Source: an uncultured Gammaproteobacteria bacterium (GTDB lineage Bacteria > Patescibacteriota > Microgenomatia > Levybacterales > UBA12049). From it: 64,000 nt of DNA. Of this stretch, positions 7,100 to 41,339 are shown piece by piece. The stretch is from the NCBI GenBank assembly GCA_964424775.1, contig CAYRJZ010000001.1, positions 204,748 to 268,747 on the forward strand, read 5' to 3'. The translations under genes and the position numbers were made by a program. Below the pieces are notes generated by a model. It was given only the letters and a program-made list of their open reading frames with translations, had not been told where the DNA came from and searched no databases. Numbering within the stretch: position 1 is the first letter of the stretch; each line of letters begins with the position of its first letter.

Positions 7100-7124
7100 T
7101 GAGATTTCACTTATAATAAAGCAC

Positions 7125-18285: not shown

Positions 18286-18322
18286 TTGACAAAAAATAGC
18301 ACTCCTGTTATTATAGTGCTAA
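18286..18322 (+). promoter_or_regulatory. sigma-70 promoter (TTGACA-17-TATTAT) overlapping a CIRCE operator (HrcA binding site)
   Basis: TTGACA 18286-18291, TATTAT 18309-18314. Inverted repeat TAGCACTC-ctgttatta-TAGTGCTAA at 18297-18322, matching the CIRCE consensus TTAGCACTC-N9-GAGTGCTAA in 16/18 positions. Directly upstream of hrcA. Confidence 0.75.
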
Positions 18323-18337
18323 CATCTGGTACTGACT

Positions 18338-19075
18338 ATGCATAACTTAACACAAAGACAAATTCAGATTCTCAAAGCAATTATTGAAGAGTATATTAAT
18401 ACTGCTGATGCTGTTGGATCTGAAACACTTGAGAAAAAATACAACTTAAGTGCGTCACCAGCGACTATTCGTAACGAAATGGTTCGTCTTTCAGAATTAG
18501 GATATTTGAAAAAACCCCATTCTTCAGCTGGACGAGTACCGACACCTGCAGGGATGAAATTCTATGTGCGAGAGCTCATGAAAGAAAAAGAGCTTTCAAC
18601 AGTAGAAGAAGTTGCGTTAAAGGAAGGTATCTGGGATTATCGAGAGCAAATGCAGCGCTTCCTCAAAGAGGCAACAAAGTCTCTTGCACAAAAAACGGGA
18701 GCACTTGCTATTGCTACGACAAATTCAGGTGATGTTCTCGCTTCCGGATATGCAAATATTCTTGAGATGCCAGAGTTTTTTGATATTGATATTACCAAAG
18801 CGCTTCTCTCAACACTTGATGAGTATGACTATTTCCATGATCTTTGCCAAAAATCATATACATCAATGGGAGAGGACATATACATTTTGATGGGAGATGA
18901 ACTGGGTCAGCAACTCACCGGACCATATAGCTTTGTCTTTACTCATTACGAGACACCACAACATGGTTCAGGAGAGATAGGAGTAATTGGTCCAGTAAGA
19001 CTTAATTATACGACGGTTGTTCCAACGGTCAGATATTTTGGAAATTTAATTGAATCGATTGCAAAAGGATGGTAA
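18338..19075 (+). CDS. hrcA: heat-inducible transcription repressor HrcA (short form)
   Basis: MHNLTQRQIQILKAIIEEYINTADAVGSETLEKKYNLSASPATIRNEMVRLSELGYL winged-helix N-terminus. Position upstream of grpE-dnaK. CIRCE upstream. Confidence 0.8.
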   Translation: MHNLTQRQIQILKAIIEEYINTADAVGSETLEKKYNLSASPATIRNEMVRLSELGYLKKPHSSAGRVPTPAGMKFYVRELMKEKELSTVEEVALKEGIWDYREQMQRFLKEATKSLAQKTGALAIATTNSGDVLASGYANILEMPEFFDIDITKALLSTLDEYDYFHDLCQKSYTSMGEDIYILMGDELGQQLTGPYSFVFTHYETPQHGSGEIGVIGPVRLNYTTVVPTVRYFGNLIESIAKGW

Positions 19076-19578
19076 TGATGAGAGACGACGCAGTATCACA
19101 AAATGACATTCAAGAAAAGGAACAAGTAATGGCGAATGAAAGCGTTGAACCGGAAGAAATTCAGATAAATGAGTGGCAGAATAAATATAAAAGAGCGTTA
19201 GCAGATTATCAGAACCTTGAAAAGCGTGTGCGAGAAGAGAGAGGTGACCTTATTAGGTCGGCAAATAGAGATATTCTCTTGCGATTTTTGCCAATTTTGG
19301 ATACATTACTTATGGCAGAAGCTCATACAAAAGACCAGACACTATCTGTCTGTGTCCAGCAATTTCTCGATACGCTTAAGTCAGAGAATGTGACGAGAAT
19401 AAAAACAGTCGGTGAACAATTTAATCCTGAGATAATGGAAGTTATTACGACAGGACCAGGAAAGGAAGGAGTTGTTATGTCAGAGGTACGATCAGGATTC
19501 CTCTTACATGATAAACTCTTACGACCTGCACAAGTGATTGTGGGGAATGGAGAAAAAGAAATAAAGGAGAAAAATTAA
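19069..19578 (+). CDS. grpE: nucleotide exchange factor GrpE
   Basis: [45 protein letters not shown]. Operon position. Confidence 0.85.
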
Positions 19579-19580
19579 TT

Positions 19581-21470
19581 ATGGGAAAGATTATAGGTAT
19601 TGATTTAGGTACAACAAATTCAGCAATGGCTGTAATGGAGGGAGGATCTCCCAAAGTTATCCATTCTGCAGAAGGACGAAATGTCATTCCATCAGTTGTT
19701 GATCCAAAGACACATGTGGTAGGAGATGTTGCAAAGCGACAGATGGTGTTAAAGCCGAAAGAGACTCTTTTTTCAGTAAAGCGTTTGATGGGTAAGAAAT
19801 TTTCAGATCCATCTGTTCAGCAGGACATGAAATTGCTTCCATACACAGTAAAAGCAGGACGCGATGATATGGCAGTCGTTGAGGTTGATGGCAAAACATA
19901 CACACCTCAAGAAATATCAGCAATGATACTTCAGAAAATTAAAGCTGATGCTGAAGCATATTTAGGTGAAAAAGTGACAGAAGCAGTTATTACTGTTCCT
20001 GCATACTTTGACGATAGTCAGCGTCAGGCTACCAAACAAGCAGGTGAAATTGCAGGTCTTGATGTAAAGCGTATTATTAATGAACCGACAGCAGCAGCTC
20101 TTGCTTACGGACTTGATAAAAAAGATGCTCACACTATTGCTGTGTATGATCTTGGAGGAGGAACATTTGATATTTCTATTCTTGAACTAGGAGAAGGGGT
20201 AACAGAGGTTAAGTCTACGAATGGAGATACGCATCTCGGAGGAGATGATTTTGACCAGGTAATTATTGATTTTATTGCGGATGAATTTAAAAAAGAAAAT
20301 AGTATTGATCTTCGTAAAGACCCTCAGGCTCTTCAGAGATTGAAGGAGTCTGCTGAAAAAGCGAAAATTGAACTTTCAACTTCTCAAGAAGCACAAATTA
20401 ATCAGCCATTTATTACTCAGGGAGAGTCAGGACCACTTCATCTGACCATGAGTCTTTCTCGAGCAAAACTTGAGAGTCTTGTTGATGATCTTATTCAAAA
20501 AACACTTCAACCAGTGGAGAAAGCCTTGAAGGATGCGAATATGAAGGCATCAGATGTTGATGAGGTAGTTCTCGTTGGTGGAATGACACGTATGCCAAAG
20601 ATAGTTGAGACTGTCTCAAAGTTCTTTGGAAAGGAGCCAAATAAATCAGTTAATCCTGATGAAGTAGTTGCAATAGGGGCTGCTGTACAAGGTGGTGTTC
20701 TTTCAGGAGACGTGAAAGATGTCCTACTTTTAGACGTCACGCCTCTTACTCTTGGAATTGAGACTTTGGGTGGCGTCTCAACACCTCTTATCCCACGAAA
20801 TACAACTATTCCTACATCAAAATCTCAGGTGTTCTCAACTGCTTCAGATAATCAAACCCAGGTAGAAATTAATATCTTACAAGGAGAAAGACCAATGGCG
20901 CAGGATAATAAATCGCTTGGGAGATTTATTTTGGATGGAATTCCTCCAGCTCCACGAGGTATGCCACAAGTTGAGGTAACATTTGATATTGATGCGAGTG
21001 GTATCCTTCACGTTAAGGCACAAGATAAAGCGTCAGGAAAAGAGCAGAGTATTAAAATAACTGGAAGTACCGGTCTTTCAAAAGAGGAAGTAGAGCGAAT
21101 GACAAAAGAAGCAGAAATGCATGCAAAAGAAGATGAAGAGAAAAAAGAACAGATTGAAGCGAAAAATCAGGCAGATGCCCTTATTTTTACTGCTGAGAAG
21201 TCCTTAAAGGATGCTGGAGATAAAGTAAGTGATGATGTGAAGAAAGAAGTGGAGGAGAAGATTTCTGCACTGAAGAGTATTCTCGATACTGGTTCAAAAG
21301 AAGAATTACAATCAAAAACTCAAGAACTCTCTGAGAGTCTTCAAAAAGTTGGTCAAGCGATGTATCAGCAAAATACACAGCAAGAAACACCAGCAAAAGA
21401 AGATACCTCTTCCGAGGCAAAATCATCAGATGAGCCAGTTGAAGGGGAGGTAGTCGATGACGGAAAATAA
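19581..21470 (+). CDS. dnaK: chaperone DnaK (Hsp70)
   Basis: [37 protein letters not shown] and C-terminal lid. Unmistakable. Confidence 0.97.
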
Positions 21471-21801
21471 GTTTTCTCCTGAAGAATATAGTCAAGCTCC
21501 TTTAACTTTTTCAGACACGAATGAAGAGTCCATACCTCATCAAAGTGGAAATCCACCTATTCCAGTACAGCCTCGAACAGAGGAAGAGCGCGCTTTAGAC
21601 CTCTATGATGATCAAGGAATTAGAACAAAGTCTCTTCCAGCGTCACGATTGGCTGGACCAGTGAAGTCTGGGGTAAATAGTCTTCCTGATTCATTTTCCC
21701 CTCTTCCTATTCCCGACCCACGAAATAGAAGAACTGAACGTGCACCATGGTGGAGAGGTCCTCGTAAAAAGTCAGTGAAGGGAGTAAGAAATGGCAAGTA
21801 A
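21457..21801 (+). CDS. hypothetical small disordered protein between dnaK and dnaJ
   Basis: 114-aa ORF filling the 320-nt dnaK-dnaJ gap, overlapping both ends. P/S-rich with a basic C-terminal tail. No family. Coding status uncertain. Confidence 0.25.
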
Positions 21802-22678
21802 TGACTATTATCAGATATTAGGTGTTTCTAAATCTGCAACTCAGGATGAAATAAAAAAATCATATCGAAAACTCGCCCTGCAGTATCATCCTGATCGAAA
21901 TAAGACAAAAGAAGGAGAAGAGAAATTTAAAGAAATCACAAAAGCGTATGAAGTTCTGTCCGATCCTCAGAAAAGACAAACGTATGACCAGTTCGGAGCG
22001 AGTGCTTTTGAAGGTGGAGCAGGCACAGGAGCAGGAGGCCCCTTTGGAGGATTTGGCGGACAATCTGGGCGTTATGGACCGTTTTCATATACCTATTCAA
22101 CTGGTGGAGATGGACAGGGGTTTGATTTTGGAGGGTTCTCAGATCCATTTGAAATTTTTGAACAATTTTTCGGAGGTGCATCGCCATTTGGTTCACGTGC
22201 GCGTCGACCCGTCTATTCATTATCGCTTAGCTTTAAAGAAGCTGTTACTGGTGTAGAAAAGGAAGTAAATATTGATGGGAAAAAACAAAAAATAAAAATT
22301 CCCGCTGGAGTGGATACAGGTACTCGTATGAGATTTGGGGAGTTTGATCTCGTTTTTGACGTTGCCAGTGATCCAAAGTACCAGCGTGAAGGCTCAGACG
22401 TTATTACCATTGAAGAAATTACTTTTCCTCAGGCAGTCCTTGGAGACACAATTGAGGTAGAAACAGTAGAAGAAAAAGTATCGATAAAAGTACCGCCTGG
22501 TACGCAGCCTGAAACCCTTATTAGACTCAGAGGAAAAGGTATCCAAAGACTTCAAAGTACGAGTAAAGGTGACCATTATGTTCGAATAAAGGTTGTTATT
22601 CCAAAGACTGTTACGAAAAAACAAAAAGAATTACTTGAGCAATTTGAGAAAGATAACGGTAAAAAAGGCTGGTTCTAA
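21791..22678 (+). CDS. dnaJ: DnaJ-family co-chaperone, class B (CbpA-like, no zinc-finger domain)
   Basis: J domain [36 protein letters not shown]-rich linker and C-terminal substrate-binding domains. No CxxCxGxG repeats anywhere in the 295 aa. Confidence 0.85.
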
Positions 22679-22730: not shown

Positions 22731-22750
22731 ACCGTCTGAAAACGGTTTTT
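22731..22750 (+). terminator. rho-independent terminator after dnaJ
   Basis: accgt-ctgaaa-acggt followed by ttttt. Confidence 0.5.
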
Positions 22751-22762
22751 CTGCTATGAAGC

Positions 22763-23056
22763 ATGTGCGGACCGAATGAAACCTTGACTCAGCTTGGATG
22801 CTTACCAAATGATCCTGTTCAGTTTATCGGTGAGTTTTATACTATTGGGCTAGGAATAATTGGAGGAGTAGCCCTTCTTTTTATTATTTTTGGGGGTTAC
22901 ATTATTCTTACCTCACGAGGAAATCCGCACCAACTCAATACAGGGAAAAGTTATATTTACTACTCGATTTTTGGACTCTTACTGGCAATATTCGGATATC
23001 TCTTTATAGAGGTGGTTCTTGTCGATATTTTGCGTATTCCTGGTATATCTCGATAA
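22763..23056 (+). CDS. small two-TM hairpin membrane protein, hypothetical
   Basis: 97 aa. Helices IGLGIIGGVALLFIIFGGYIIL and IYYSIFGLLLAIFGYLFIEVVLVDIL, separated by a short polar loop. Ends 3 nt before the giant downstream ORF. Confidence 0.5.
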   Translation: MCGPNETLTQLGCLPNDPVQFIGEFYTIGLGIIGGVALLFIIFGGYIILTSRGNPHQLNTGKSYIYYSIFGLLLAIFGYLFIEVVLVDILRIPGISR

Positions 23057-23059
23057 TAT

Positions 23060-26000
23060 ATGAAAAAGTTTCTGCCCAAACTGCTCCTTTTTGTTGTTAT
23101 TCTTACTTGTTTTGTAGCAGTTCCAAGACCGACTCAAGCACAGAATCTAGATACTCAACTTCCCCAAGTAGGATCATGGATACGTGACCCTGAGGTTACA
23201 CGTGTTGGTAAAAATGCATCTCGCTCTGGAATGCTTTTAGACTGGACACTGAAAGAATATCGTTGGACCGCTCAGTCATATGATGGCACCAATAATCCTC
23301 TCGTTCCCTTCTGGCAAATCGTACAAAGAATAGTCTATGCACTCTTTCTGGTCGTCATTATGATAACCGCATTTATTTTAATAGTTACGCGTGGAAAGAG
23401 TCTCTCAGCAAAGAGATTCCTGCCTCGCTTCTTTCTTGTCATCTTACTTGTGACATTTTCTTTTTCACTTGTTCAATTTCTCTATCAAATTACTGATATT
23501 TTTCAAGGATTTTTCCTTCGCAATCCCCAAGGAGCGATTATCTCCTCAAAAGATTTGTTATTTATAGGTTTTGATTATAGGACATTTGAAGGACTGAGAC
23601 GTTTTGGCCCTGATTTTGACGAGACAGCTTTTACTTCATTACTCTTTGTTAAGCTAACAGCCTTTACCTACTATGCAATGTCTATTCTGCTGATTATTCG
23701 AAAAATTATATTATGGTTTTTTGTTGTTATTTCACCTGTTTTTCCTCTGCTAATTCTCTTTTACCCAGTTCGAAATACCGCAAAAATTTGGATAGGGGAA
23801 TTCTTTAGATGGCTGTTATACGCTCCTCTTTTTGCAATATTTCTTTCAGGCCTTGTTCGTCTTTGGCAGTCAAATTTACCATTGCTTTTCAGTAATGAAG
23901 GAGTTGGTGATCCTTCAAAAATAATCTATCCAACTGCAATTAATATTCTTCTCGGTGGTCCGCAACAGCAAGTAGGAATAAATAACAGTATCAACCTTCC
24001 CGATACCTTTGCACTTTATCTTGTTGCAATTATTATGCTCTGGGTAGTTATAATACTGCCTTTTATTTTGCTTCAAATATTTTTAGATTATATGATGGCA
24101 TTTAATTATCGAGAGAATCCAGCAGTAAAGCAGATGATGGGGATTATAAATAATAGACTGGCTCCTCCTTCAAATCCCAAAACGCCAGTTATTCCTGTCG
24201 GACCTGCGACAACAGGAATGGCACGTAATTTGCCTTTCACCAGAAAGTACACAGCTCCAACTTCAACGGGGCTTGCTCGAGAGATTCCACAGGCAAGGAC
24301 TATTTCCCAGAGAACCCGTATTGATCGAACGACACCAGTTTTGAGAAGTAAAACAGCTGAGATCTCACGTCTTACTAACTTATCAATTCCAACAATGAGA
24401 GACATTGCCCGGTATGAGCGTGAGAAACTAGCAAATAGTGTCTTAATGCAGAAAGAATCGGTAAGGACTCAGGAGATATTAAGAAATATTGCCAATCCTG
24501 CATCAATCTCTACAGTAACTGAGCGTGATAGATTTCGACAAATTCGGGAGAAGTTGGTAAATGAAAGTACAAAAGGAGACCAGATTTCTTCATCTGTCTT
24601 AAATGCCGCTTCATTATTCAATTCATATGTAACTTCCACATCTACTCAGTCTGCATCAAGTACGCTTCAAACAATTATTCAGCAGTTAACAAATCCTTCA
24701 GTTATTACAAATACTACTGATCGAGAGAAAATTACTGAGATAAGAGAGAAGCTTAATTCAGTAAAAGATTCTGGAAAAGAGTATGTTTCCTCTATCCTAA
24801 AATCGATCTCAGTTCAGGATAAGAGTCAAATGAAGGAAACATCATTGCAAAGTGTTCTCCAAAAATTGTCTCAGACTAATTCGATAACTGATCAAAAAGA
24901 GAAATTACAGTATCAGTCGCTTCGTGAGAAGATAACTGATGCAAGTCGTTCAGGAAATCAGTTGGCAACATTAGTAAGAGAATCGCTTGAAAAATCGACC
25001 TCAACTGAGCAAGTAAAACATATTCAGCAAGAGCTTATCCGCGCGAAAGAACAAGGTAATCCCCTTGCAGGTGAGATTCTTAAACAAGCCCAAAATGAAA
25101 GTAAGAAAGAAGTTGATTCCCAAACTCTCATCACTCAATTAGAAGAAGCTAAGAAGCAAGGTGATCCGTTAGCAACCCTTCTTCTCCAATTGATTACTCA
25201 AAAGAAATCACAGACACAGAAAGCACCTGTTCCAGCAAATGCAAAAACAAAGACTGGATCCTTCCCTGTAGTAAATAGAATTCAACAGGTAAGCCTTGAT
25301 GATTATGAAGCAGTAAAGAAAATGTGGAGTGAGAACTATCGCGACCTTGAAGTCCCTCAAAGTATTTCAGGTACTCAATCACGAAAGCAGTGGATTAGTA
25401 GTGATATTTTGGATATTGAACAGACTATTAGTCTATTGACATCACAAAATAGTGCAGATGTTGAAGATGGTATGAAACAGGTGGCTGATATCTTGCCATT
25501 CCTTCTCATTGGTGGATTTAGTCAGACAGAGATAGTTGCATATTTAAAAGCAAAACTTGAAGCTGGTAAATCAGTTCTTGAAGAAGTTGAGAAACAAGTT
25601 GAGGAGGAGGATACACTTCTTGAGACAAAGAGGCGAACAACTGAAAATGAGAAACATCTTGCAGCGTCTCAAGAAATTAATGAGACGAACTATTCACAAA
25701 ATAATGCACAAAGTATTACGAATAATTTTAATACGACAAACATAAGTAATGAAAATATTGAAACAACAGACGTTCAGTCAGGCGTAAGTACCCCTTCAAA
25801 TACATTACTTCAGCTTACTCATTTGTCACTTCCAACCATAAAAGATATTGTGAGATTTGAACAAAGCAAAATAGCAGAGAGGAAAGAGATGCTATCAGAA
25901 TCCGAAAGAATTTTAACGTATTTAGCACATCCTGAAAGGTTAAACCCAGAGGAAAGAGTAAAGTATCAGGAACTTCATGATCAACTCCTGTCAGAAAGTG

Positions 26001-27319
26001 AAAGAGGCAATACGATTGCACAGGCTATACTTGCTGCCACAACATCAGATTCAGAGTCAAGCGAAATAACAGATGAGAATATGAGTGAATTTATTGACAA
26101 CCTTCAATCTTCTCTTTCAATAATAAGTAATCAATCAGACGTAAAGCCTGAAGATGTAAAAAAAGTTCTTCTCTCGCTTAGTAACGTCGAAAAAGTAAAT
26201 GATGAAAAAGATAAAGAGTTATATACACAATTAAAACAAGAAATACTCATGAACTCATCGAGCTCGCTTGCTCAACAGCTGAGGGAGGTGCTGAATAATC
26301 CTTCAAATGCTGTTTCACTTGACAAATTATCATCAGATATTCAATTAGCTAAAGCAAATGGGGATAAAATAGCTGAAGATCTTACACTGCTTATCCCCTC
26401 ACAGGCAAAATTGGGAGTTTTACAGCAAAATTCTCTTGTAACAAAAATACAAAATACTCTTCAGACAGTACAGGGCTATCAAGCACAAAACATGATGCGT
26501 TTTCTTGAGAAATTAGGAAATCCTGAGCAGATTAGTGTTGCAACTGAGAGAACGAACTTCACCAAACTTGTTGAGCGTTTAAGTCAGGAACAGGACATGA
26601 ATAATCTTGCAGCAACACTTCTAAAAGTAGCCAAAGATGAAAACAAAGAATTACGGGTTTCTGAAGTGTACAGTGTGCTTAAAAATGAAGTACAAAAAGG
26701 TGATCCATTAGCTCTTTATATAACTCAATCCCTCCTTATTCCTTCAAAAGAAATGGGTTCGTCTGTTAAAGAGATTTATAAAGAAATTGTGCGAGAAAAG
26801 GAAAAAGGAAATAAAGTGGCTGAGGAAATTCTTGATAGTTTAGCAAAACCTCAAGTAAAAACAAGAAAATTTGGATCATTTGCATTACCTCGGCAAAATA
26901 GAGTCCAGCAGGTAACTCTTGATGATTATGAAGCAGTTAAAAAATTATGGTACGAGATATACTTGCAGTCAGATGTACCAAAAAATGGGGAGGCAGTACA
27001 GACACGTGAAGAATGGATTAAGAGCGATCAAAAAGCAATACAGCGTGTCATTAATCTGCTTTCATCAGAGATTGAAGAAGAAAATGCATTAGGAATGGAG
27101 ATGGTAAAGGATATCTTGCCTTTCCTCTTTATCGGAGGGTTTAGTAACGACGAAGTGATAGGGTATTTGAAAGCAAAGTTAGAAGCAGGTAGTATGGCAC
27201 TTGAGACTCTTAAAGCCAGAAATGAGGGGGAAGACACGAAAATTTTGGTAGATAATTTAAATGAACAATCTCAAAACCAGAATGTTCAAGAAATATCGCT
27301 TGAGAAAAAGCAAGGCTAA
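23060..27319 (+). CDS. giant secreted polytopic membrane protein with tandemly duplicated C-terminal helical-repeat module (hypothetical)
   Basis: 1419 aa. Signal peptide MKKFLPKLLLFVVILTCFVAVPRPTQAQ. ~70-aa extracytoplasmic segment. 5-6 TM helices within aa 90-350. Then ~1000 aa hydrophilic, built of two diverged copies of a ~480-540-aa unit, each made of ~35-aa helical repeats of the form ..REKL....G..LA..LL.. Open frame with no stops. Confidence 0.6.
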   Translation: MKKFLPKLLLFVVILTCFVAVPRPTQAQNLDTQLPQVGSWIRDPEVTRVGKNASRSGMLLDWTLKEYRWTAQSYDGTNNPLVPFWQIVQRIVYALFLVVIMITAFILIVTRGKSLSAKRFLPRFFLVILLVTFSFSLVQFLYQITDIFQGFFLRNPQGAIISSKDLLFIGFDYRTFEGLRRFGPDFDETAFTSLLFVKLTAFTYYAMSILLIIRKIILWFFVVISPVFPLLILFYPVRNTAKIWIGEFFRWLLYAPLFAIFLSGLVRLWQSNLPLLFSNEGVGDPSKIIYPTAINILLGGPQQQVGINNSINLPDTFALYLVAIIMLWVVIILPFILLQIFLDYMMAFNYRENPAVKQMMGIINNRLAPPSNPKTPVIPVGPATTGMARNLPFTRKYTAPTSTGLAREIPQARTISQRTRIDRTTPVLRSKTAEISRLTNLSIPTMRDIARYEREKLANSVLMQKESVRTQEILRNIANPASISTVTERDRFRQIREKLVNESTKGDQISSSVLNAASLFNSYVTSTSTQSASSTLQTIIQQLTNPSVITNTTDREKITEIREKLNSVKDSGKEYVSSILKSISVQDKSQMKETSLQSVLQKLSQTNSITDQKEKLQYQSLREKITDASRSGNQLATLVRESLEKSTSTEQVKHIQQELIRAKEQGNPLAGEILKQAQNESKKEVDSQTLITQLEEAKKQGDPLATLLLQLITQKKSQTQKAPVPANAKTKTGSFPVVNRIQQVSLDDYEAVKKMWSENYRDLEVPQSISGTQSRKQWISSDILDIEQTISLLTSQNSADVEDGMKQVADILPFLLIGGFSQTEIVAYLKAKLEAGKSVLEEVEKQVEEEDTLLETKRRTTENEKHLAASQEINETNYSQNNAQSITNNFNTTNISNENIETTDVQSGVSTPSNTLLQLTHLSLPTIKDIVRFEQSKIAERKEMLSESERILTYLAHPERLNPEERVKYQELHDQLLSESERGNTIAQAILAATTSDSESSEITDENMSEFIDNLQSSLSIISNQSDVKPEDVKKVLLSLSNVEKVNDEKDKELYTQLKQEILMNSSSSLAQQLREVLNNPSNAVSLDKLSSDIQLAKANGDKIAEDLTLLIPSQAKLGVLQQNSLVTKIQNTLQTVQGYQAQNMMRFLEKLGNPEQISVATERTNFTKLVERLSQEQDMNNLAATLLKVAKDENKELRVSEVYSVLKNEVQKGDPLALYITQSLLIPSKEMGSSVKEIYKEIVREKEKGNKVAEEILDSLAKPQVKTRKFGSFALPRQNRVQQVTLDDYEAVKKLWYEIYLQSDVPKNGEAVQTREEWIKSDQKAIQRVINLLSSEIEEENALGMEMVKDILPFLFIGGFSNDEVIGYLKAKLEAGSMALETLKARNEGEDTKILVDNLNEQSQNQNVQEISLEKKQG
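24380..27300 (+). repeat. intragenic tandem duplication (two ~1.45-1.6 kb units) inside the giant ORF
   Basis: Protein blocks LSIPTMRDIARYEREK / LSLPTIKDIVRFEQSK (nt ~24381 and ~25826). FPVVNRIQQVSLDDYEAVKKMW / FALPRQNRVQQVTLDDYEAVKKLW (nt ~25261 and ~26881). VADILPFLLIGGFSQTEIVAYLKAKLEAGKSVLEEVEKQVEEEDTLLE / VKDILPFLFIGGFSNDEVIGYLKAKLEAGSMALETLKARNEGEDTKIL (nt ~25488 and ~27111). Short stretches are near-identical at DNA level (gatgattatgaagcagt, gatatcttgcc). Confidence 0.7.
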
Positions 27320-27358: not shown

Positions 27359-30031
27359 ATGCTTGGTAACCTGTTCAACCAACATAAAGAAGAGAAGTTA
27401 GATGCAGCTCCTCAGTCAAATGGAGATGCAACACAGACTGATCCTCAGCAACCACAAGAGCCATCTTCAAGTCCAACTGTAGGATCACGCATGGATCCAA
27501 GTTTTCGACAGAATTTATCAGCCTTATCTCATTTAGACTCTCGTACTACTCAAGTCCTCCATCATGCTCAAGATGAAACGAAGAGAATTAGACAACCTCT
27601 CATTGAACCTGAACAAATATTAATTGGTCTTTTATATGACGAGTCAGTTTTTAAATTGCTAGAACAATTTGATGTAGATGTAGCAAAGCTTGCACAAGAG
27701 CTCCAGACAAAGGAGCAACTCGGAACATTTTCTGGACAGCCAACATTAAGTAATGATACGACATCACTTTTTGAACAAGCATACAGAGAGGCAAAAGGAA
27801 GAGATGCAAGTTTTGTAACTCCTGAAGATGTCTTACTCATTCTATGTAATAGTAATATGGAAGCTGCAAAAAAATTGCAAGAAAAGGGGATATCCAAACA
27901 GGCTGTCTCTGAGAAAATCACGAAAAGTGCTAATTTTTCAAAAGGTGGAAAAAAATCTGTATTAGAACAGTTTGCAATTGATCTTACTGAGGAAGCGCGT
28001 GCAGGCAAACTCGATCCAATTGCTGGTCGAGATAAAGAAACAGAACGACTCATTCATATTCTTCTTAGACGAACAAAAAATAATCCTATCATTATCGGAG
28101 AAGCTGGTGTTGGTAAGACAGCAATAGTGGAAGGTCTCGCATTAAAAATTGTTTCTTCACAAGTGCCTAAAGAGTTAAGTGGACGGAAGATTTTTCAACT
28201 CGATCTGGCTTCTCTTGTTGCAGGCGCGAGTCATAGAGGAGAGTTTGAAGAAAGACTCAAAGGAGTAATTAATGAGGCGATAGCATCTCAGGGTCAGATA
28301 ATTCTATTTATAGATGAGATCCATACCCTTATTGGTGCTGGAGACACTGATGGAGCATTGGATGCGTCAAATATTATTAAACCTCATCTGGCTCGTGGTC
28401 ATATGCAGATAATTGGGACCACAACGACTACAGAGTATCGAAAGCATTTTGAGAAGGATAAAGCTTTTGAGAGAAGATTTCAGCCAATAATAGCTGAAGA
28501 GCCAACTGAAGAAGTTGCTGTCGAAATGTTAAAAGTACTTAAAACTAAGTACGAAAAATTCCATAATGTTACTCTTCCTGATGACACCTTAACAGCAGCT
28601 GTTAAGTTGTCCAAAAAGTATATTGGTGAGCGGTACCTTCCTGATAAGGCAGTTGACCTTCTCGATGAAGCAGCAGCTGAGGTAAAACTTGAGAGTGGCG
28701 GAGGTAAACGACAGGATACACAGGTCGTGAAGAAAGATATTGAAAAGGTTGTTTCTGATTGGACAGGAATTCCAATTACTAAATTAACAGAAGATGAGAG
28801 TCAAAAACTTCTTAATCTTGAAAAGAAAATTCATGACCGACTTATAGATCAAGTAGAGGCAGTGACAGCGGTTGCTGAAGCTGTAAGGAGAGGTCGAATA
28901 GGTCTTGCACCTGCAAATAGACCAATTGCTTCATTTATTTTTCTTGGTCCAACCGGAGTAGGAAAGACAGAACTTGCCAAAACATTAGCAGAAATTTTAT
29001 TTGGCCGTGACGATGCATTAGTTCGACTTGATATGAGTGAGTATATGGAAAAGCATGAAGTGGCTAAATTAATTGGTGCACCTCCTGGGTATGTCGGATA
29101 TGAAGAAGGAGGACAACTTACTGAAGCAGTCCGGGCAAAACCATACTCTATTGTCCTTCTTGATGAAGTTGAAAAGGCCCATCCAGATGTCTTTAATATT
29201 CTCCTTCAGCTTTTGGAAGACGGTCGTCTAACTGATAATAAAGGAAATACAATCTCGTTTAAAAATACGATTGTGATATGTACTTCTAATATAGGAAGCG
29301 CACTTATTCAGCAACAACTGACTGAAAAGGATGATGTTACTCTAACTCAAACAGATGAACAACAAGCGCAGCTCTTTGCAGAACTAACCTCAACTGTTAA
29401 TGGTGAGCTTCGAAAATTCTTCAGACCTGAATTATTAAATAGATTTGATGACGTGGTAATATTTAAGCCTTTAAGACGACAAGACATGTCACAAATTGCA
29501 AAGCTTGGCATTGCTAAAACTGGTAAACTTCTTGAGGAACAAGGATATCATATTCAGACAAGTGACAAAGCACTTGCTCAACTTGCAAAAGAAGGATATG
29601 AACCTGCAAATGGTGCTAGACCATTACGAAGACTTATACAGTCTTCTATTGAAAATCAAATTGCACTTCTTCTTATTAATAAAACGTTCGCACCTGGAGA
29701 TACAATAGTAATCGATTATGATGAGAGTAAGTCTGAATTTGTCTTCAACAAAGGAACAGCACAAGTTGTATCACCTACAGCGGATAATGTATCAGAAAAG
29801 ACAGATTCTTCTCCAGATTCAATGCCTGTTGCAACAAATACACAAGAAGTTACACAACAGCCCTCACAACCGCAAGTCGTATCTGGAGACATGCAAGCAA
29901 ATTCAGCAGTCAATCAGCCACAGACTCAGTTTGCCCCACCGAATTTTAACCCTCCTTTTCTGAAAAAAGAGGATAATAATTCACAAACAACGCCAAATGG
30001 CGTCATCCAAGCCTCAGCTGCTGTCAATTAA
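27359..30031 (+). CDS. clpC: ClpC-type AAA+ chaperone ATPase (two NBDs, Clp N-domain repeats, short linker, Q/P-rich C-terminal tail)
   Basis: Clp_N repeats in aa 60-200. NBD1 Walker [16 protein letters not shown] and Walker [12 protein letters not shown]2 [49 protein letters not shown]. No long ClpB-type middle coiled coil. C-terminal ~90 aa low-complexity. Confidence 0.85.
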
Positions 30032-30404
30032 CTTGTTCTTTCAGGTTAAAGATCCTATACTTTTATATGTAGGAATGTCTGCCTTAATTTCTCTGCCAGT
30101 TTATTTTTTGCGATTTTGGTACTTAGAAGTACCTTCTCGCATGCTTGATTATTTCCTTACTCTCAATCAGGCATTCTTTCAATTATTCTCATTGCCACTT
30201 TTTGTCAGGACATTTTTCCTCCCTCTTAAAAATGAATATAGGAAAGGTCTTGTTGGATTTTCTTTAGGTATGGGAATTGCAGTCAAACTTCTTCTCATAA
30301 TTGTAGATGTCTTATTATTTCTTCTCTTATTACTGCTTGAACTTGTTCTAATTGCAGGATTTATGCTTTTTCCTATACTTACTTTACTTATACTTATATG
30401 GTAG
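29997..30404 (+). CDS. small integral membrane protein, hypothetical
   Basis: 135 aa, 3-4 TM helices. Starts inside the clpC 3' end. Its stop overlaps the next start in an ATGGTAG arrangement. Confidence 0.35.
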   Translation: MASSKPQLLSINLFFQVKDPILLYVGMSALISLPVYFLRFWYLEVPSRMLDYFLTLNQAFFQLFSLPLFVRTFFLPLKNEYRKGLVGFSLGMGIAVKLLLIIVDVLLFLLLLLLELVLIAGFMLFPILTLLILIW

Positions 30405-32803
30405 CTTCACAGAAACAACTTATTTCAATCTACGCAATATACCGTTCTGCGCTCATTCGAACGATACGCTTTTTTCTTTTCATATCTCTGTTATTACTTC
30501 TTGTGTTTACTACAACTCAAGGCGGGGATATACGTATCCCATTATTCTTTTTTAACATTTTCCTTATGACGGAGATCTTTTATCGATATAAAATTTCTCG
30601 TCTCAGACCTGCGAGAAAAGTCTCGGAAATATCTGAGGATGAAGCAGTTGCAGCTTGTACACAGCTCGTTTTATATGCACTCTATTCTGCAAGTTCAGCA
30701 GAAGAGCTCGTCAGACATCTTTTTTCTACTCACCAAGCAAAATTTATGCTAGAGAGATGCGGGCTTTCTCCAGAAGAGCTTCCTCACAGTCAGATTGATG
30801 CAGGAACGCTTCTTCGTTATGCACACAAGCTTGTGAAGAGTGTTGAAGGTGAGTACATAACTACTGCTGACATATTAGCTGCCTACATTATGTATGTTGA
30901 GCCTGAAGCACACTTACTCCTTTCAAAGAAACTTCGTGAAGATGAATTTATGGACATATTAAAGTGGACTCGTTGGAGGTTTCAGCAAGAAGAAAAACCG
31001 CAGAAATTAGAAGTTCATTTTAGCGGAAGCGGTATAGGAGATGGTCTCATCACAGGTTGGACACTTGAAACGAAGAAATACACGCGTGATTTTAGTCTGG
31101 ATGCTCTTCAAAAAAATACGTCAATCTTTGGAAGAGAAAAAGAGTATGATCTTGTTCAGGAAACATTGGCAAAAGCACAAAATAACAATATTCTTCTCAT
31201 AGGGGAACAAGGAGCAGGAAAAGAAGGTCTCATTCGGAAGTTTGCTATTGAAAGTTATATGGGGAAGAGTACTCCACATACGAGACACAAGAAAATTCTT
31301 GAAATTCTTGTAGGGCCACTTATTGCTGGTGCAACAAGTAGAGGAGATCTGGAAACACGACTTCAAGCAATAATAGAAGAAGTTTCTCATTCTGGAAATG
31401 TCATTCTCTATATTCCTGAACTTCAGGATATACTAGGAAGTTCATCTTTTTCGATGGATTTATCAGGTGCTCTTTATCCATATCTTCAGAGTGGTAAATT
31501 CCCAATCATCGCGTCATTGACACCTGGCAACTTTAAAACGTACTTGGAAGGAAAGCCACTTGCTCAATTATTTACGCAGATTTCTTTAACAGAGCCTAAA
31601 GAGGAGTCTGCCCTTCGTATGTTAATGGAAGTAAGTCGAGACATTGAGCAGGAGTCTCATGTAGCCATAACATATCGTGCAATCTCCAGTGCTGTATCAC
31701 TTGGAAATAGATATATGCAGGATATGCAACTTCCAGGAAGCGCAGTGCGCCTTCTCCAAGATACTGTAGTAAGGGTGCAACAAACACCTGCGGCGCAACA
31801 AACCTATACTAGAAAACGAATAGTAACTGAAGAAGCGGTTGTTAAGACTGTAGAGGATAAAACTCATATTGCTCTTTCTGAGCCGAATGATGAGGAAAAA
31901 CAGTTGTTATTGCATCTTGAAGACACGCTTCATAAAAAAATTATTGGACAGGATGAGGCTATTAAAGTATTAGCTCAAGCGCTTCGAAGACTGAGGTCAG
32001 GGATGGTTGAAAAAACACGTCCTACGTCATTTCTCTTTTTGGGGCCAACTGGAGTTGGAAAAACAGAAACTGCTAAGACACTCTCTGAGATATATTTTGG
32101 TGGTGAACGGGCAATGATCCGACTCGACATGAGTGAATATGCTGATAGTACTGGTGAGAAAAGATTGCTCGGAGCTCCTCCGGGAGAAGGAGAAGAGCGA
32201 GGAGAATTAACGGAGAAAGTTCGGGACAATCCTTATTCTCTTATTCTTCTCGATGAATTTGAAAAAGCTCATCCGCGCATACTGGATCTCTTCCTACAGG
32301 TTTTTGATGACGGAAGACTGACGGATAATAAAGGACGTACTGTTTCTTTTGTAAATACGATAATTATTGCGACATCGAATGCAGGATCATCTTATATAAG
32401 TGAAGAAGTAAGACAGGGGAGACCTCTGGACAGTAAAAAACTTATTGAGTATCTCCAGTCTCAACACCTCTTTAAACCGGAACTCCTTAATAGATTTGAT
32501 GATGTTGTTACCTTTAGGCCGCTTTCTCAAGTTGAAATACAGAAAATCTCAAAATTACTTCTAGAAGAGATGAAAGAGCGGATGAAAGAACGGGATATCC
32601 ATCTGTCGTTTACGGAAGCAGTTATTCAAAAGATAGGAAAAGATGGATTTGATCCTCAGTTTGGTGCTCGTCCAATTAGACGATACATTCAGGATTCAAT
32701 TGAAGATCTTTTGTCACGAAAAATATTAGCAAACGAAATTCAACGAGGAAATACTCTTCATATTGATGTGAAGGAGAATGTATTTGATGTCACAGTTTCT
32801 TAA
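30398..32803 (+). CDS. membrane-anchored Clp/Hsp100-family ATPase paralog with degenerate NBD1 and intact NBD2
   Basis: Two N-terminal TM helices (FFLFISLLLLLVFTT, IPLFFFNIFLMTEIF). NBD1 Walker A GEQGAGKEG (K followed by E, not S/T) and Walker B position ILYIPEL (Asp replaced). NBD2 intact: [45 protein letters not shown], sensor SNAGS, GARPIRR. Confidence 0.7.
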   Translation: MVASQKQLISIYAIYRSALIRTIRFFLFISLLLLLVFTTTQGGDIRIPLFFFNIFLMTEIFYRYKISRLRPARKVSEISEDEAVAACTQLVLYALYSASSAEELVRHLFSTHQAKFMLERCGLSPEELPHSQIDAGTLLRYAHKLVKSVEGEYITTADILAAYIMYVEPEAHLLLSKKLREDEFMDILKWTRWRFQQEEKPQKLEVHFSGSGIGDGLITGWTLETKKYTRDFSLDALQKNTSIFGREKEYDLVQETLAKAQNNNILLIGEQGAGKEGLIRKFAIESYMGKSTPHTRHKKILEILVGPLIAGATSRGDLETRLQAIIEEVSHSGNVILYIPELQDILGSSSFSMDLSGALYPYLQSGKFPIIASLTPGNFKTYLEGKPLAQLFTQISLTEPKEESALRMLMEVSRDIEQESHVAITYRAISSAVSLGNRYMQDMQLPGSAVRLLQDTVVRVQQTPAAQQTYTRKRIVTEEAVVKTVEDKTHIALSEPNDEEKQLLLHLEDTLHKKIIGQDEAIKVLAQALRRLRSGMVEKTRPTSFLFLGPTGVGKTETAKTLSEIYFGGERAMIRLDMSEYADSTGEKRLLGAPPGEGEERGELTEKVRDNPYSLILLDEFEKAHPRILDLFLQVFDDGRLTDNKGRTVSFVNTIIIATSNAGSSYISEEVRQGRPLDSKKLIEYLQSQHLFKPELLNRFDDVVTFRPLSQVEIQKISKLLLEEMKERMKERDIHLSFTEAVIQKIGKDGFDPQFGARPIRRYIQDSIEDLLSRKILANEIQRGNTLHIDVKENVFDVTVS

Positions 32804-40184: not shown

Positions 40185-41339
40185 ATGGTTGACGCTGCCC
40201 TCCCTACTACTCCTCCAGTGAATGGAAAAGGAGCTCAAACTCCTTCTTCTCCTTCCTTTATGACACCAACAGGAAAAGGAGAATCAAATGATCAGATCAG
40301 AAAATTGGGAGAAAGAATAGAAAAAGCTGAACTCCCTGATGTTCTTAAACAAAATCTTCTTGAACGTGTTTCACGCCTTGCACTTCTTCGAGCAAGTTCC
40401 GGGTTTATGAGCGCAAATTATATTCTTGAGTATGAGAACACATCGAATTATATCAATTGGGTAGTTGGACTTCCTTGGCATATGAACACCCAGGATGTGC
40501 TTGATTTAGTAAAAGCGAAGGAAATAATGGACAAACATCATTATGGGCTCGATGTTATAAAGAATAGAATTCTTGATTATCTAGCAACAATTATTTTAAA
40601 TATGAAACAACAACGACATGATTTAGTTACACGAGCTCCTATTTTATGCCTTGTAGGTCTGGCTGGAACTGGTAAAACGACGCTTGCTTCATCTATTGCT
40701 GAAGCACTGGGGAAAAAATTTGAACGTATACCATTTGGAGGAATGGCAGATTCGCGTGCTCTGCGTGGACAATCAAAAGCATTTCCAGATGCAGAGCCTG
40801 GATTTGTTGCTAAAAAATTATTTCATGCAAAATCAAATAACCCGGTTATTCTGCTTGACGAGTTAGATCGTGTCACAGAGTCTGCTCGAGCTGATATTAT
40901 GGGAGTTCTCGTTGAGCTTTTGGATCCTGAGCAGAACTTTGCGTTTACTGATCACTATATTGATTATCCTTTCAATTTATCTAATGTTCTGTTTATTGCT
41001 ACTGCAAATAACACAAGCAGCATCTCAACTGCTGTTCTCGATCGTCTTGAGATCATTCAGATGCCATCTTATACCGATGAGGAGAAAATTGTCATTGCTA
41101 AGCAATATTTGTTCAATCAAATCAGATCAGAAGCAGGGTTAAGTGATCAAAATTTAATTATAGATGAAGCAGTTTGGCCTGGAGTCATTCGACCCTTGGG
41201 CTTTGATTCAGGGATTCGATCACTTGAACGAACGATTCAGGGTATTTGTCGAAAGGTTGCTAGACAAATAGTTGAAGGAAAAGTCACAGCTGTGCGCATT
41301 ACAGATACTAATCTTAAGGAGTATCTCCCACAGTGGTAA
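40185..41339 (+). CDS. Lon-like AAA+ ATPase module lacking N-domain and S16 peptidase domain
   Basis: Colinear with the Lon region from the helical bundle through the AAA+ alpha-subdomain: YINWVVGLPWHMNTQDVLDLVKAKEIMDKHHYGLDVIKNRILDYLA; ILCLVGLAGTGKTTLASSIAEALGKKFERIPFGGMADSRALRGQSKAFPDAEPGF; VILLDELDRV; VLVELLDPEQNFAFTDHYIDYPFNLSNVLFIATAN; LDRLEIIQMPSYTDEEK. Stops at TAA 41337-9 exactly where the protease domain would begin. RNase J begins 57 nt later. Confidence 0.8.
   Translation: MVDAALPTTPPVNGKGAQTPSSPSFMTPTGKGESNDQIRKLGERIEKAELPDVLKQNLLERVSRLALLRASSGFMSANYILEYENTSNYINWVVGLPWHMNTQDVLDLVKAKEIMDKHHYGLDVIKNRILDYLATIILNMKQQRHDLVTRAPILCLVGLAGTGKTTLASSIAEALGKKFERIPFGGMADSRALRGQSKAFPDAEPGFVAKKLFHAKSNNPVILLDELDRVTESARADIMGVLVELLDPEQNFAFTDHYIDYPFNLSNVLFIATANNTSSISTAVLDRLEIIQMPSYTDEEKIVIAKQYLFNQIRSEAGLSDQNLIIDEAVWPGVIRPLGFDSGIRSLERTIQGICRKVARQIVEGKVTAVRITDTNLKEYLPQW

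What the first reader, a model, noticed from the sequence alone, without database searches (positions are those of the whole stretch)
22763..27319. Orphan two-gene membrane module: small two-TM protein plus 1419-aa signal-peptide multi-pass protein with a giant repeat-built C-terminus
A rho-independent terminator (22731-22750) ends the dnaK/dnaJ operon. Right after it, a 97-aa hairpin membrane protein is followed 3 nt later by a 1419-aa ORF. The large ORF has a cleavable signal peptide, a short extracytoplasmic segment, 5-6 TM helices and a ~1000-aa hydrophilic tail. This topology (secreted N-terminus, multi-pass core, very long C-terminal extension, preceded by a VirB2/TrbC-sized two-TM protein) is reminiscent of VirB2 + VirB6/TrbL pairs of type IV secretion / conjugation systems. 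VirB6 homologues with giant repeat extensions are known in Rickettsiales. However, no VirB4, VirD4 or relaxase is in the window. I do not recognise the C-terminal repeats as any named family. The module is therefore a candidate for an undescribed envelope or cell-cell-interaction system of a CPR-like episymbiont.
Basis: partly seen in the sequence, partly recalled or inferred. Interest (0 to 1): 0.7.

Follow-up and report, generated by a model that had tools for sequence, protein, structure and literature searches.

The report
Pilin, giant VirB6-like protein, Clp partner
The two genes encode relatives of the pilin (VirB2) and membrane platform (VirB6) of type IV secretion systems, and in about 200 Levybacteria genomes they are kept together with an unusual Clp/Hsp100 ATPase inside the heat-shock gene cluster, which hints that a chaperone-type motor works with this secretion-like module.

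Summary

The module is not an orphan pair. Across 80 Levybacteria (Microgenomates, CPR) species, the pilin gene lies directly upstream in 75 of 78 loci. A Clp/Hsp100 ATPase lies directly downstream in 61 of 69. The trio is embedded in the hrcA-grpE-dnaK-dnaJ locus, and dnaJ follows the trio in 25 loci.

The Clp lacks both the M-domain and the ClpP-docking loop. In 10 genomes its C-terminal extension is built from the same helical repeats as the VirB6-like tail.

The tail consists of two ~450-aa modules. Each holds a short HTH-like motif, helical repeats and an unassigned four-helix-bundle domain.

No VirB4, VirD4 or relaxase lies in the window, and the rest of the genome could not be searched. 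My best reading is a lineage-specific variant of the Patescibacteria T4SS parts, coupled to an Hsp100 motor. The mechanism is inferred.

The parts
22763..23056 (+). VirB2-type T4SS pilin-like protein (97 aa). It has two hydrophobic helices (30-48, 69-87), a conserved N-terminal Cys pair (C2, C13) and no signal peptide.
   Evidence: ORF. Pfam PF18895 scores 30.8 bits against a gathering score of 26.6. All 16 orthologues hit PF18895. Hydropathy. The orthologue alignment shows an invariant C-x10-C and starts at M-x-C.
23060..24100 (+). N-terminal VirB6/TrbL-like membrane domain of the 1419-aa protein (residues 1-347). It comprises a signal-like segment (1-27), a conserved ectodomain, and long hydrophobic helices at 81-110, 116-152, 184-233, 235-270 and 314-347.
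24101..24367 (+). Proline-rich, net basic linker (residues 348-436) with conserved LPF and GLAREIP motifs.
   Evidence: Net charge from residue 348 to 420 is +9 in this protein, with a mean of +3.8 and about 11 Pro across 20 family members. Consensus.
24368..25615 (+). Tail module A (residues 437-852): an HTH-like motif LTNLSIPTMRDIARYE (24371-24406), helical repeats (residues 470-730) and a four-helix-bundle end domain (about residues 746-860).
   Evidence: Internal duplication, 30% identity, E = 4e-48. Motif. The repeat region is homologous to Clp C-terminal extensions in 10 loci. End-domain model has pLDDT 81.5.
25811..27238 (+). Tail module B (residues 918-1393), with the same architecture as module A. 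The HTH-like motif lies at 25814-25849 and the end domain at about residues 1275-1400.
27359..30031 (+). Atypical Clp/Hsp100 class-I AAA+ ATPase (890 aa): Clp_N domain plus two intact AAA modules, with no M-domain, no ClpP-docking loop and no TM segment. It is the conserved third gene of the unit.
   Evidence: Pfam. It scores below every NCBIfam equivalog cut-off (ClpB 893 against 1232 bits). Alignment to S. aureus ClpC shows the M-domain and the AGF loop are missing. Walker motifs are intact and no TM segment is found. A Clp gene lies directly downstream of the VirB6-like gene in 61 of 69 loci.
22731..22754 (+). Weak hairpin plus T-run between dnaJ and the pilin gene.
   Evidence: 5-bp stem with 3 GC pairs. 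Terminator-like sites in the region number 15, against 9.4 +/- 3.1 in shuffles. Sequence.
18286..22678 (+). Upstream heat-shock operon: a sigma-70-like promoter overlapping a CIRCE operator (18286-18322), then hrcA (18338-19075), grpE (19069-19578), dnaK (19581-21470) and dnaJ (21791-22678).
   Evidence: CIRCE with 2 mismatches and 0 matches in shuffles. Promoter matches 11 of 12 positions. ORFs. Gene identities come from the Pfam annotation of the syntenic loci.

Best explanation
**What the genes are (shown).** The two genes encode a VirB2-type pilin-like protein and an 'extended' VirB6/TrbL-type polytopic membrane protein. Together with the next gene, an Hsp100/Clp ATPase that lacks the M-domain and the ClpP loop, they form a vertically inherited three-gene unit of Levybacteria. 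The unit is embedded in the HrcA/CIRCE heat-shock locus.

**How it most likely works (inferred).** This follows the solved R388 system, where a VirB6 pentamer is the membrane base that recruits VirB2 from the membrane.
1. The N-terminal VirB6-like domain forms an oligomeric platform or channel in the single membrane of the cell. It binds the co-encoded two-helix pilin.
2. The 1000-residue tail consists of two modules, each with an HTH-like motif, helical repeats and a four-helix bundle. It probably lies in the cytoplasm.
3. The tail serves as a scaffold that brings the Clp unfoldase, and possibly DnaK/DnaJ, to the platform. The Clp then supplies ATP-driven unfolding or extraction for export or pilus dynamics.

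**Left open.** Whether the unit also works with a VirB4-based apparatus encoded elsewhere in the genome.
For: **Homology**
- PF18895 scores above the gathering score.
- Foldseek's top 9 matches are all TrwI chains.
- Pfam TrbL is above threshold in two orthologues and weak here.

**Unit conservation across 80 species loci**
- The pilin gene lies directly upstream in 75 of 78 loci, with a median gap of 3 nt.
- A Clp gene lies directly downstream in 61 of 69 loci, plus 5 more within 2.5 kb.
- dnaJ lies upstream in 40 loci and downstream in 25, while the trio stays contiguous.
- In L064/L006 the upstream context is entirely different, but pilin, VirB6-like gene and Clp remain together.

**Beyond Levybacteria-type synteny**
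- In remote homologues (36-42% identity in the N-domain) placed in other contexts, a Clp ATPase lies next to or near the gene in 3 of 5 assessable loci: L088, L090 and L091.

**Domain sharing**
- The tail repeats (residues 470-730) match the 320-640-aa C-terminal extensions of the neighbouring Clp in 10 loci, with E from 1e-24 to 6e-11.
- Among all ORFs of the 80 loci, only VirB6-like proteins (74) and these Clp proteins (10) are hit.
- Twenty shuffled queries gave 0 hits, and the alignments share the same motifs.
- These Clp proteins have no TM segment, which places the repeat in the cytoplasm.

**The Clp is specialised**
- It has no M-domain and no ClpP loop, and it scores below all NCBIfam equivalog cut-offs.

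**Mechanistic precedent**
- In R388, the VirB6 pentamer is the proposed VirB2 recruitment and assembly platform (PMC9259494).
Against: - No VirB4, VirB3, VirB8, VirD4 or relaxase lies in the 64-kb window. Without an identified T4SS ATPase, the pair's membership of a working T4SS is unproven.
- The pilin-like protein lacks the leader peptide typical of VirB2.
- Tail topology is unresolved.
  - Counting hydrophobic segments (a signal segment plus six) would place the tail outside the cell.
  - Loop charges are ambiguous.
  - Only the basic linker and the Clp-fused repeats argue for a cytoplasmic tail.
- The ten repeat-bearing Clp proteins come from related genomes and may reflect a single fusion event.
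- Two remote homologues (L092, L093) have no Clp within 10 kb.
- No physical interaction was computed or measured.
- Levybacteria synteny could be partly frozen ancestry.
Confidence: 0.55

Rival explanations
1. The pair is simply the VirB2 and VirB6 component set of the ordinary VirB4-driven Patescibacteria T4SS, whose other genes lie elsewhere (typically near dnaA/rnpA). Under this reading the position next to clp and dnaK is inherited gene order with no physical or functional coupling.
For: - VirB4 was found in 2,417 of 3,035 Patescibacteria genomes and usually lies near dnaA/rnpA.
- In Microgenomatia, T4SS parts are often dispersed and VirB6 is reported as 'scarce', which suggests divergent copies (PMC12102498).
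- Remote homologues of this protein sit next to rnpA-yidC-jag (L088, L089, L093).
- A CIRCE operator is found only at the head of the heat-shock operon, not in front of the pair.
Against: - Tail repeats are shared with the neighbouring Clp.
- Clp adjacency survives loss of the dnaK context (L064, L090, L091, L088).
- dnaJ moves relative to the trio, but the trio stays intact.
- The Clp is a specialised form lacking the M-domain.
- No VirB4 was seen next to any family member examined.
Confidence: 0.22
2. The long tail is displayed outside the cell as a modular adhesin or host-contact arm. This would resemble the C-terminal domain of F-plasmid TraG or the proposed role of the extended VirB6 proteins of Rickettsiales. 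The pair would then mediate attachment to a host cell.
For: - A signal segment plus six hydrophobic segments gives an outside C-terminus by simple counting.
- A proline-rich linker follows the last hydrophobic helix.
- The number of tail modules varies from 1 to 5 and total length from about 400 to 2790 aa, as is common for surface proteins.
- The episymbiotic lifestyle of cultivated Patescibacteria fits such a role (PMC10633639).
Against: - The same repeats are fused to the C-terminus of soluble Clp ATPases that have no TM segment.
- The linker is net basic: +9 here, mean +3.8.
- AF2 models residues 184-233 as one continuous helix rather than a TM hairpin, which would give an odd number of crossings and an inside tail.
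- The tail is lysine/glutamate-rich and contains no cysteine.
Confidence: 0.15
3. The genes are a decaying remnant of an integrated conjugative element, or an unrelated transporter with a low-complexity tail, and have no secretion-related role.
For: No relaxase, VirB4 or VirD4 lies nearby. The large protein has no Pfam or NCBIfam hit above threshold.
Against: - The ORFs are intact, and the N-domain is 50-73% identical across hundreds of clusters and 227 species genomes.
- Base composition shows no deviation from the flanking DNA.
- The genes sit among core housekeeping genes.
- The fold match to VirB6 is specific.
Confidence: 0.03

Closest known systems
VirB2/VirB6 of conjugative T4SS (R388 TrwL/TrwI; Pfam PF04956/PF18895 and PF04610)
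   Same: - A small two-helix pilin gene sits next to a polytopic helical membrane protein.
- The pilin passes the PF18895 threshold.
- In R388, VirB6 is the membrane base proposed to recruit VirB2 (PMC9259494).
   Different: - No VirB4, VirB3, VirB5, VirB8 or VirD4 lies nearby.
- The pilin has no leader peptide.
- VirB6 here carries a 1000-aa modular tail.
- The locus is chromosomal, in a monoderm CPR lineage, inside a heat-shock locus.
- Sequence similarity to TrbL is below the Pfam threshold for this protein (14.4 against 25.9 bits).
T4SS of Patescibacteria (Southlakia epibionticum SEML1_0006-0019; survey by Quinonero-Coronel et al. 2025)
   Same: It occurs in a CPR lineage, has a monoderm-type system with VirB2-like pilins (PF18895) and VirB6 homologues, is chromosomal, and has no relaxase (PMC10633639, PMC12102498).
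   Different: - The described clusters are centred on virB4 and usually lie near dnaA. VirB6 homologues were reported as scarce in Microgenomatia.
- This family lies apart from any virB4 seen, and is coupled to a Clp/Hsp100 gene and the dnaK operon.
- I found no mention of that link in the papers searched.
Extended VirB6 proteins (Rickettsiales VirB6 paralogues; F-plasmid TraG)
   Same: An N-terminal VirB6-like membrane domain is followed by a very large hydrophilic C-terminal extension of unknown role. The FEMS review PMC12857230 notes that the roles of such extensions are unknown. The F-plasmid TraG architecture is recalled from my own knowledge, not checked here.
   Different: - The extension here has its own architecture (HTH-like motif, about 95-aa helical repeats, four-helix bundle).
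- It matches no Pfam family and no solved structure.
- It is shared with a Clp ATPase rather than with any known extended VirB6.
ClpV (TssH) of type VI secretion: an Hsp100 paralogue dedicated to a secretion machine
   Same: This is a functional analogy only. A ClpB-family double-ring AAA+ gene is kept next to genes of an envelope machine. NCBIfam TssH is among the hits to the Clp here, but below its cut-off (694 against 885 bits).
   Different: - No T6SS genes are present.
- The Clp here lacks the M-domain entirely.
- The link to the membrane protein is inferred from gene order and shared repeats, not from a known N-domain/substrate pair.

Membership tests
T4SS_pilin / VirB2-like (Pfam PF18895) | Profile score at or above the Pfam gathering score | tested here: met
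   30.8 bits against 26.6, E = 3e-7. 16 of 16 orthologues hit. NCBIfam NF045849 (pilin-like conjugal transfer protein) scores only 26.7 against a cut-off of 40.
T4SS_pilin / VirB2-like (Pfam PF18895) | Two hydrophobic helices joined by a short polar, positively charged loop | tested here: met
   Segments 30-48 and 69-87, with a loop containing R52 and K62.
T4SS_pilin / VirB2-like (Pfam PF18895) | N-terminal leader or signal peptide removed on maturation | tested here: not met
   The longest ORF starts at M-C-G. Many orthologues start at M-x-C with no hydrophobic leader.
T4SS_pilin / VirB2-like (Pfam PF18895) | Polymerises into a pilus | not testable with these tools
   Needs microscopy or biochemistry.
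VirB6/TrbL (Pfam PF04610) | Profile score at or above the Pfam gathering score | tested here: not met
   This protein scores 14.4 bits against 25.9, E = 0.032, over residues 98-270 matching profile positions 2-181 of 215. Orthologues P0013 (27.8) and P0018 (27.1) pass, and P0059 (24.6) nearly passes.
VirB6/TrbL (Pfam PF04610) | Fold of solved VirB6 (bundle of long, mostly hydrophobic helices) | tested here: met
VirB6/TrbL (Pfam PF04610) | Encoded with a VirB4 ATPase and other T4SS parts | tested here: not met
   None lies in the 64-kb window or in any flanking region of relatives inspected. The rest of the genome could not be searched.
VirB6/TrbL (Pfam PF04610) | Genetic pairing with a VirB2-type pilin | tested here: met
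   A pilin gene lies directly upstream in 75 of 78 loci, with a median gap of 3 nt.
ClpB disaggregase (TIGR03346), for the neighbouring ATPase | Coiled-coil M-domain between the two AAA modules, and a score above the equivalog cut-off | tested here: not met
   893 bits against a cut-off of 1232, matched in two pieces. About 10 residues stand where the M-domain should be.
ClpA/ClpC (ClpP-coupled unfoldases), for the neighbouring ATPase | ClpP-docking loop ([IVLA]-G-[FL]) in the second AAA module | tested here: not met
   The S. aureus ClpC segment 'RFAGFG' aligns to '[13 protein letters not shown]', which contains no G-F/L.

The most novel reading that the evidence does not exclude
Levybacteria run a T4SS-derived envelope machine built from a VirB2-like pilin and an extended VirB6-like platform. 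Its motor is not, or not only, VirB4/VirD4 but a dedicated M-domain-less Hsp100 unfoldase. That unfoldase would be tethered through a shared helical-repeat module and expressed with the DnaK system. This would be a new way of powering a type IV-like secretion or pilus apparatus.
Probability: 0.2. Interest if true: 0.85.

Novelty: new variant of a known kind. Interest (0 to 1): 0.6.

Why it matters
- T4SS-like genes are essential for the epibiotic growth of the one genetically tractable Patescibacterium. Yet these systems lack a recognisable coupling protein and relaxase, and what they move and how is unknown (PMC10633639, PMC12857230).
- The 2025 survey could hardly find VirB6 in Microgenomatia (PMC12102498). 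This family is a strong candidate for that missing component in Levybacteria.
- Its fixed partnership with a specialised Hsp100 gives a concrete, testable idea for substrate unfolding or energy input. The partnership includes a repeat module shared between the two proteins.
- It also defines two unassigned protein modules that could be added to family databases: a helical repeat of about 95 aa and a terminal four-helix bundle.

Tried and rejected
- **Self-BLAST of the tail.** It reported only the identity hit. Splitting the tail in two solved this.
- **N-domain profile against PDB sequences.** Nothing meaningful was found. Only the fold comparison worked.
- **Database search with the end-domain profile.** It returned only short fragments.
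- **Database search with a Clp C-terminal extension.** It was swamped by common words and gave one hit. The wider frequency of the Clp-repeat fusion is therefore unknown.
- **The afdb50 fold library.** It was not available.
- **The exact window protein (P0001).** It is not on record for contig look-up.
- **Pilin profile against PDB sequences.** Only chance hits to membrane proteins appeared.
- **VirB4 in the variant locus L075.** Its two large ORFs gave no VirB4 match in PDB.
- **A CIRCE operator in front of the pilin or Clp genes.** None was found in 80 loci.
- **Positive-inside counting of loops.** It did not settle the topology.
- **Rejected readings.** A mobile-element remnant and an unrelated transporter (see the rival explanations).
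Full report
**Observation**

The two ORFs are present exactly as described: 22763-23056 (+, 97 aa) and 23060-27319 (+, 1419 aa), 3 nt apart.

Kyte-Doolittle scanning finds two hydrophobic segments in the small protein (30-48, 69-87). In the large protein it finds a signal-like segment (4-22) and six hydrophobic segments between residues 91 and 337. About 1080 hydrophilic residues follow.

The tail is a tandem duplication. Residues 437-852 align to 918-1393 at 30% identity, E = 4e-48.

Base composition shows no break at the locus.

The 'terminator' after dnaJ is a 5-bp hairpin with a T-run. Terminator-like sites in this region are not clearly more frequent than in shuffled sequence (15 against 9.4 +/- 3.1). 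It is therefore weak evidence for an operon boundary.

**Window context**

Pfam scans of every ORF of at least 120 aa show a core-genome region. It contains aminoacyl-tRNA synthetases, murB, greA, nusA, infB, pnp, RNase J, chromosomal ftsK, rpoB/rpoC and rpsL/rpsG. There is no VirB4, VirD4 or relaxase.

Immediately upstream lie hrcA-grpE-dnaK-dnaJ. A strong promoter-like site overlaps a CIRCE operator at 18286-18322 (2 mismatches, none in shuffles).

Immediately downstream lie four genes:
- a Clp/Hsp100 ATPase (27359-30031);
- a small membrane protein (29997-30404);
- a second Clp-like ATPase (30398-32803);
- a VWA protein.

**The small protein**

It scores 30.8 bits on Pfam PF18895 (T4SS_pilin, gathering score 26.6). 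All 16 orthologues tested hit the same family.

The alignment of 76 orthologues is very conserved. Its consensus is C-x10-C...PNDP..FV.KFY.IGL.LIGGVALLFII.GGY.ILTS.GNP..L..GKSYI.YAI.GLLLAIFG.

Many orthologues begin at M-x-C. This subfamily therefore has no leader peptide, which differs from classical VirB2.

**The large protein, N-terminal domain**

Direct Pfam and NCBIfam scans of the whole protein give nothing significant.

Scanned alone, the first 420 residues give a weak TrbL/VirB6 match: E = 0.032, residues 98-270 against profile positions 2-181 of 215. Orthologues P0013 and P0018 pass the TrbL gathering score (27.8 and 27.1 against 25.9).

An AlphaFold2 model built on a 20-sequence alignment has pLDDT 78 and pTM 0.71. 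The fold comparisons are specific:
- Foldseek against the whole PDB returns TrwI chains as its nine best matches.

The N-domain is therefore a VirB6-fold protein. By sequence it is a very divergent TrbL/VirB6 relative.

**The family**

The N-domain is far more conserved than the tail, at 50-73% identity in the closer representative clusters. The representative library holds 895 clusters at E <= 1e-3 and 235 at E <= 1e-30. Their total lengths run from about 400 to 2790 aa.

A scan of one genome per species found relatives in 227 genomes. The named ones are almost all Candidatus Levyibacteriota/Levybacteria or 'Patescibacteria group'. Their lineage is Microgenomates group, Patescibacteria.

**The tail**

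Each of the two modules has three elements:
- It starts with a short HTH-like motif, LTNLSIPTMRDIARYE or LTHLSLPTIKDIVRFE.
- It continues with helical repeats of roughly 95 aa. Their recurring motifs are NP..I....E+..F..L.EK....S..GN.LA and L..AK..GDPLA.EIL.
- It ends in a conserved domain of about 115 aa.

That end domain occurs in 214 of the 240 family proteins held, in 1 to 5 copies. It lies at the very C-terminus, with a median of 9.5 residues left after it. It models as a four-helix bundle with pLDDT 81.5.

**Gene neighbourhood**

For 80 species loci I called ORFs and searched them with the window's proteins:

| Feature | Count |
|---|---|
| Pilin gene directly upstream | 75 of 78 (median gap 3 nt) |
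| Clp ATPase directly downstream | 61 of 69 (median gap 50 nt) |
| Clp ATPase within 2.5 kb but not adjacent | 5 more |
| dnaK upstream | 66 of 80 |
| dnaJ upstream of the trio | 40 |
| dnaJ downstream of the trio | 25 |

Where dnaJ is downstream, the trio usually sits between dnaK and dnaJ. The surroundings have thus been rearranged while pilin, VirB6-like gene and Clp stayed contiguous.

In L064/L006 the upstream genes are a two-component system rather than dnaK/dnaJ, and the trio is still intact.

Seven remote homologues (36-42% identity in the N-domain) lie in other contexts:
- A Clp ATPase is adjacent or within two genes in L088, L090 and L091.
- It is absent within 10 kb in L092 and L093.
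- L087 and L089 are too short to tell.

No pilin of the Levybacteria type was detected next to these remote members.

CIRCE-like operators occur only upstream of hrcA/dnaK (44 of 80 loci). None lies in front of the pilin or Clp genes.

**The Clp partner**

It has a Clp_N domain and two AAA modules with intact Walker motifs, and no TM segment. It scores below every NCBIfam equivalog cut-off; for ClpB, 893 bits against 1232.

Alignment to S. aureus ClpC shows two absences:
- The M-domain is missing, with about 10 residues in its place.
- The ClpP-docking AGF loop has no counterpart.

It is thus neither a canonical ClpB nor a ClpA/ClpC. It is a stand-alone Hsp100 of a specialised kind.

**Shared repeats**

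In ten loci the neighbouring Clp is 1167-1513 aa long, and in nine of them this is because of a 320-640-aa C-terminal extension. These extensions are homologous to the tail repeats of the VirB6-like protein:
- With window residues 470-730 as the query, E runs from 1e-24 to 6e-11.
- Among all ORFs of at least 50 aa in the 80 loci, only VirB6-like proteins (74) and these Clp proteins (10) are hit.
- Twenty shuffled queries give no hit.
- The alignments show the same motifs.

These Clp proteins have no TM segment.

This is the strongest indication that the two proteins work together and that the repeat acts in the cytoplasm. The ten genomes are related, so this may be one evolutionary event.

**Topology**

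This remains unsettled.
- Simple segment counting puts the tail outside the cell.
- AF2 models residues 184-233 as one continuous 50-residue helix, as in VirB6, which would give an inside tail.
- Loop charges are ambiguous.
- The linker after the last helix is proline-rich and net basic: +9 here, mean +3.8.

Together with the Clp-fused repeats, I favour a cytoplasmic tail at roughly 60-65%.

**Interpretation**

Shown:
- a VirB2-type pilin-like protein;
- a VirB6-fold membrane domain with a modular extension;
- a conserved three-gene unit with a specialised Hsp100;
- embedding of the unit in the heat-shock locus;
- repeats shared between the tail and the Clp.

Inferred:
- By analogy with R388 (PMC9259494), the N-domain is a membrane platform for the pilin.
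- The tail scaffolds the Clp unfoldase, and perhaps DnaK/DnaJ, at that platform.

Whether a VirB4 apparatus elsewhere in the genome takes part could not be tested.

**Comparison with the literature**

Patescibacteria T4SS-like clusters with pilin arrays and VirB6 are known. They are essential in Southlakia epibionticum (PMC10633639).

The 2025 survey found VirB4 in 2,417 of 3,035 genomes. It reported VirB6 homologues as 'scarce' in Microgenomatia, 'suggesting extreme sequence divergence' (PMC12102498). This family fits that gap.

Extended VirB6 proteins are known elsewhere, and their extensions are functionally unexplained (PMC12857230).

I found no paper linking VirB6 or T4SS parts of CPR bacteria to Clp/Hsp100 genes. 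The searched library is limited to open-access papers and preprints.

**Verdict**

The module is larger and better embedded than 'orphan' suggests.

It is a new variant of a known kind. The Clp coupling and the shared repeat are the unexpected parts.

Noticed in passing
window 29997-32803: A small membrane protein (135 aa, hydrophobic segments 20-38 and 101-119) overlaps by 7 nt the start of a second Clp-like ATPase (801 aa). That ATPase has an N-terminal hydrophobic anchor (19-37) and a degenerate first AAA module (Walker A reads GEQGAGKE, with no canonical Walker B). The pair recurs in many Levybacteria loci, often directly after dnaJ.
   Followed up: partly
window 18286-18322: A near-consensus sigma-70-type promoter (11 of 12 positions, with a TG extension) overlaps a CIRCE operator (ATAGCACTC-N9-TAGTGCTAA) just upstream of hrcA. 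CIRCE-like sites occur at the same place in 44 of 80 related loci.
   Followed up: yes
L048, L052, L053, L058, L065, L076, L078, L081 (e.g. L053 4122-5384, minus strand): In a subset of Levybacteria, a much larger protein (about 270-420 aa) carrying a T4SS_pilin domain lies upstream of hrcA on the opposite strand. Seven of these eight loci (all but L058) also have a Clp gene with the tail-like repeat extension.
   Followed up: no
L075 3099-12092: A variant locus has three pilin paralogues, two large secreted-looking proteins (one with a weak pectin-lyase-like match), a short VirB6-like protein (524 aa) and a separate ORF carrying the tail end domain. It has no dnaK or Clp nearby.
   Followed up: partly
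window 24371-24406 and 25814-25849; L087, L088 tails: The motif that opens each tail module (LxxLSxPTxxDIAxxE) looks like a helix-turn-helix. In remote homologues, repeated copies add up to weak Pfam hits to HTH families (Sigma70_r4, HTH_IclR, HU-HIG). Whether the tail binds nucleic acid is open.
   Followed up: no
window 40185-41339: A 384-aa protein matches only the AAA+ module and lid of Lon (profile positions 250-569 of 795). It has no N-terminal domain and no protease domain.
   Followed up: no
window 7080-9386: A class-I lysyl-tRNA synthetase domain is fused to a C-terminal B3/4 domain, the domain type of the phenylalanyl-tRNA synthetase beta chain, in one 768-aa ORF.
   Followed up: no
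window 49073-52146, minus strand: A sortase gene directly follows a 781-aa protein with weak Baseplate_J-like and GlxA beta-barrel matches. This may be a sortase/substrate pair for the cell surface.
   Followed up: no
L088, L089, L093: Remote family members recur directly after (rnpA-)yidC(-jag)-Wzy_C, the origin-proximal region where the 2025 survey places virB4 in Microgenomatia. No VirB4 was visible in the short flanks available.
   Followed up: partly
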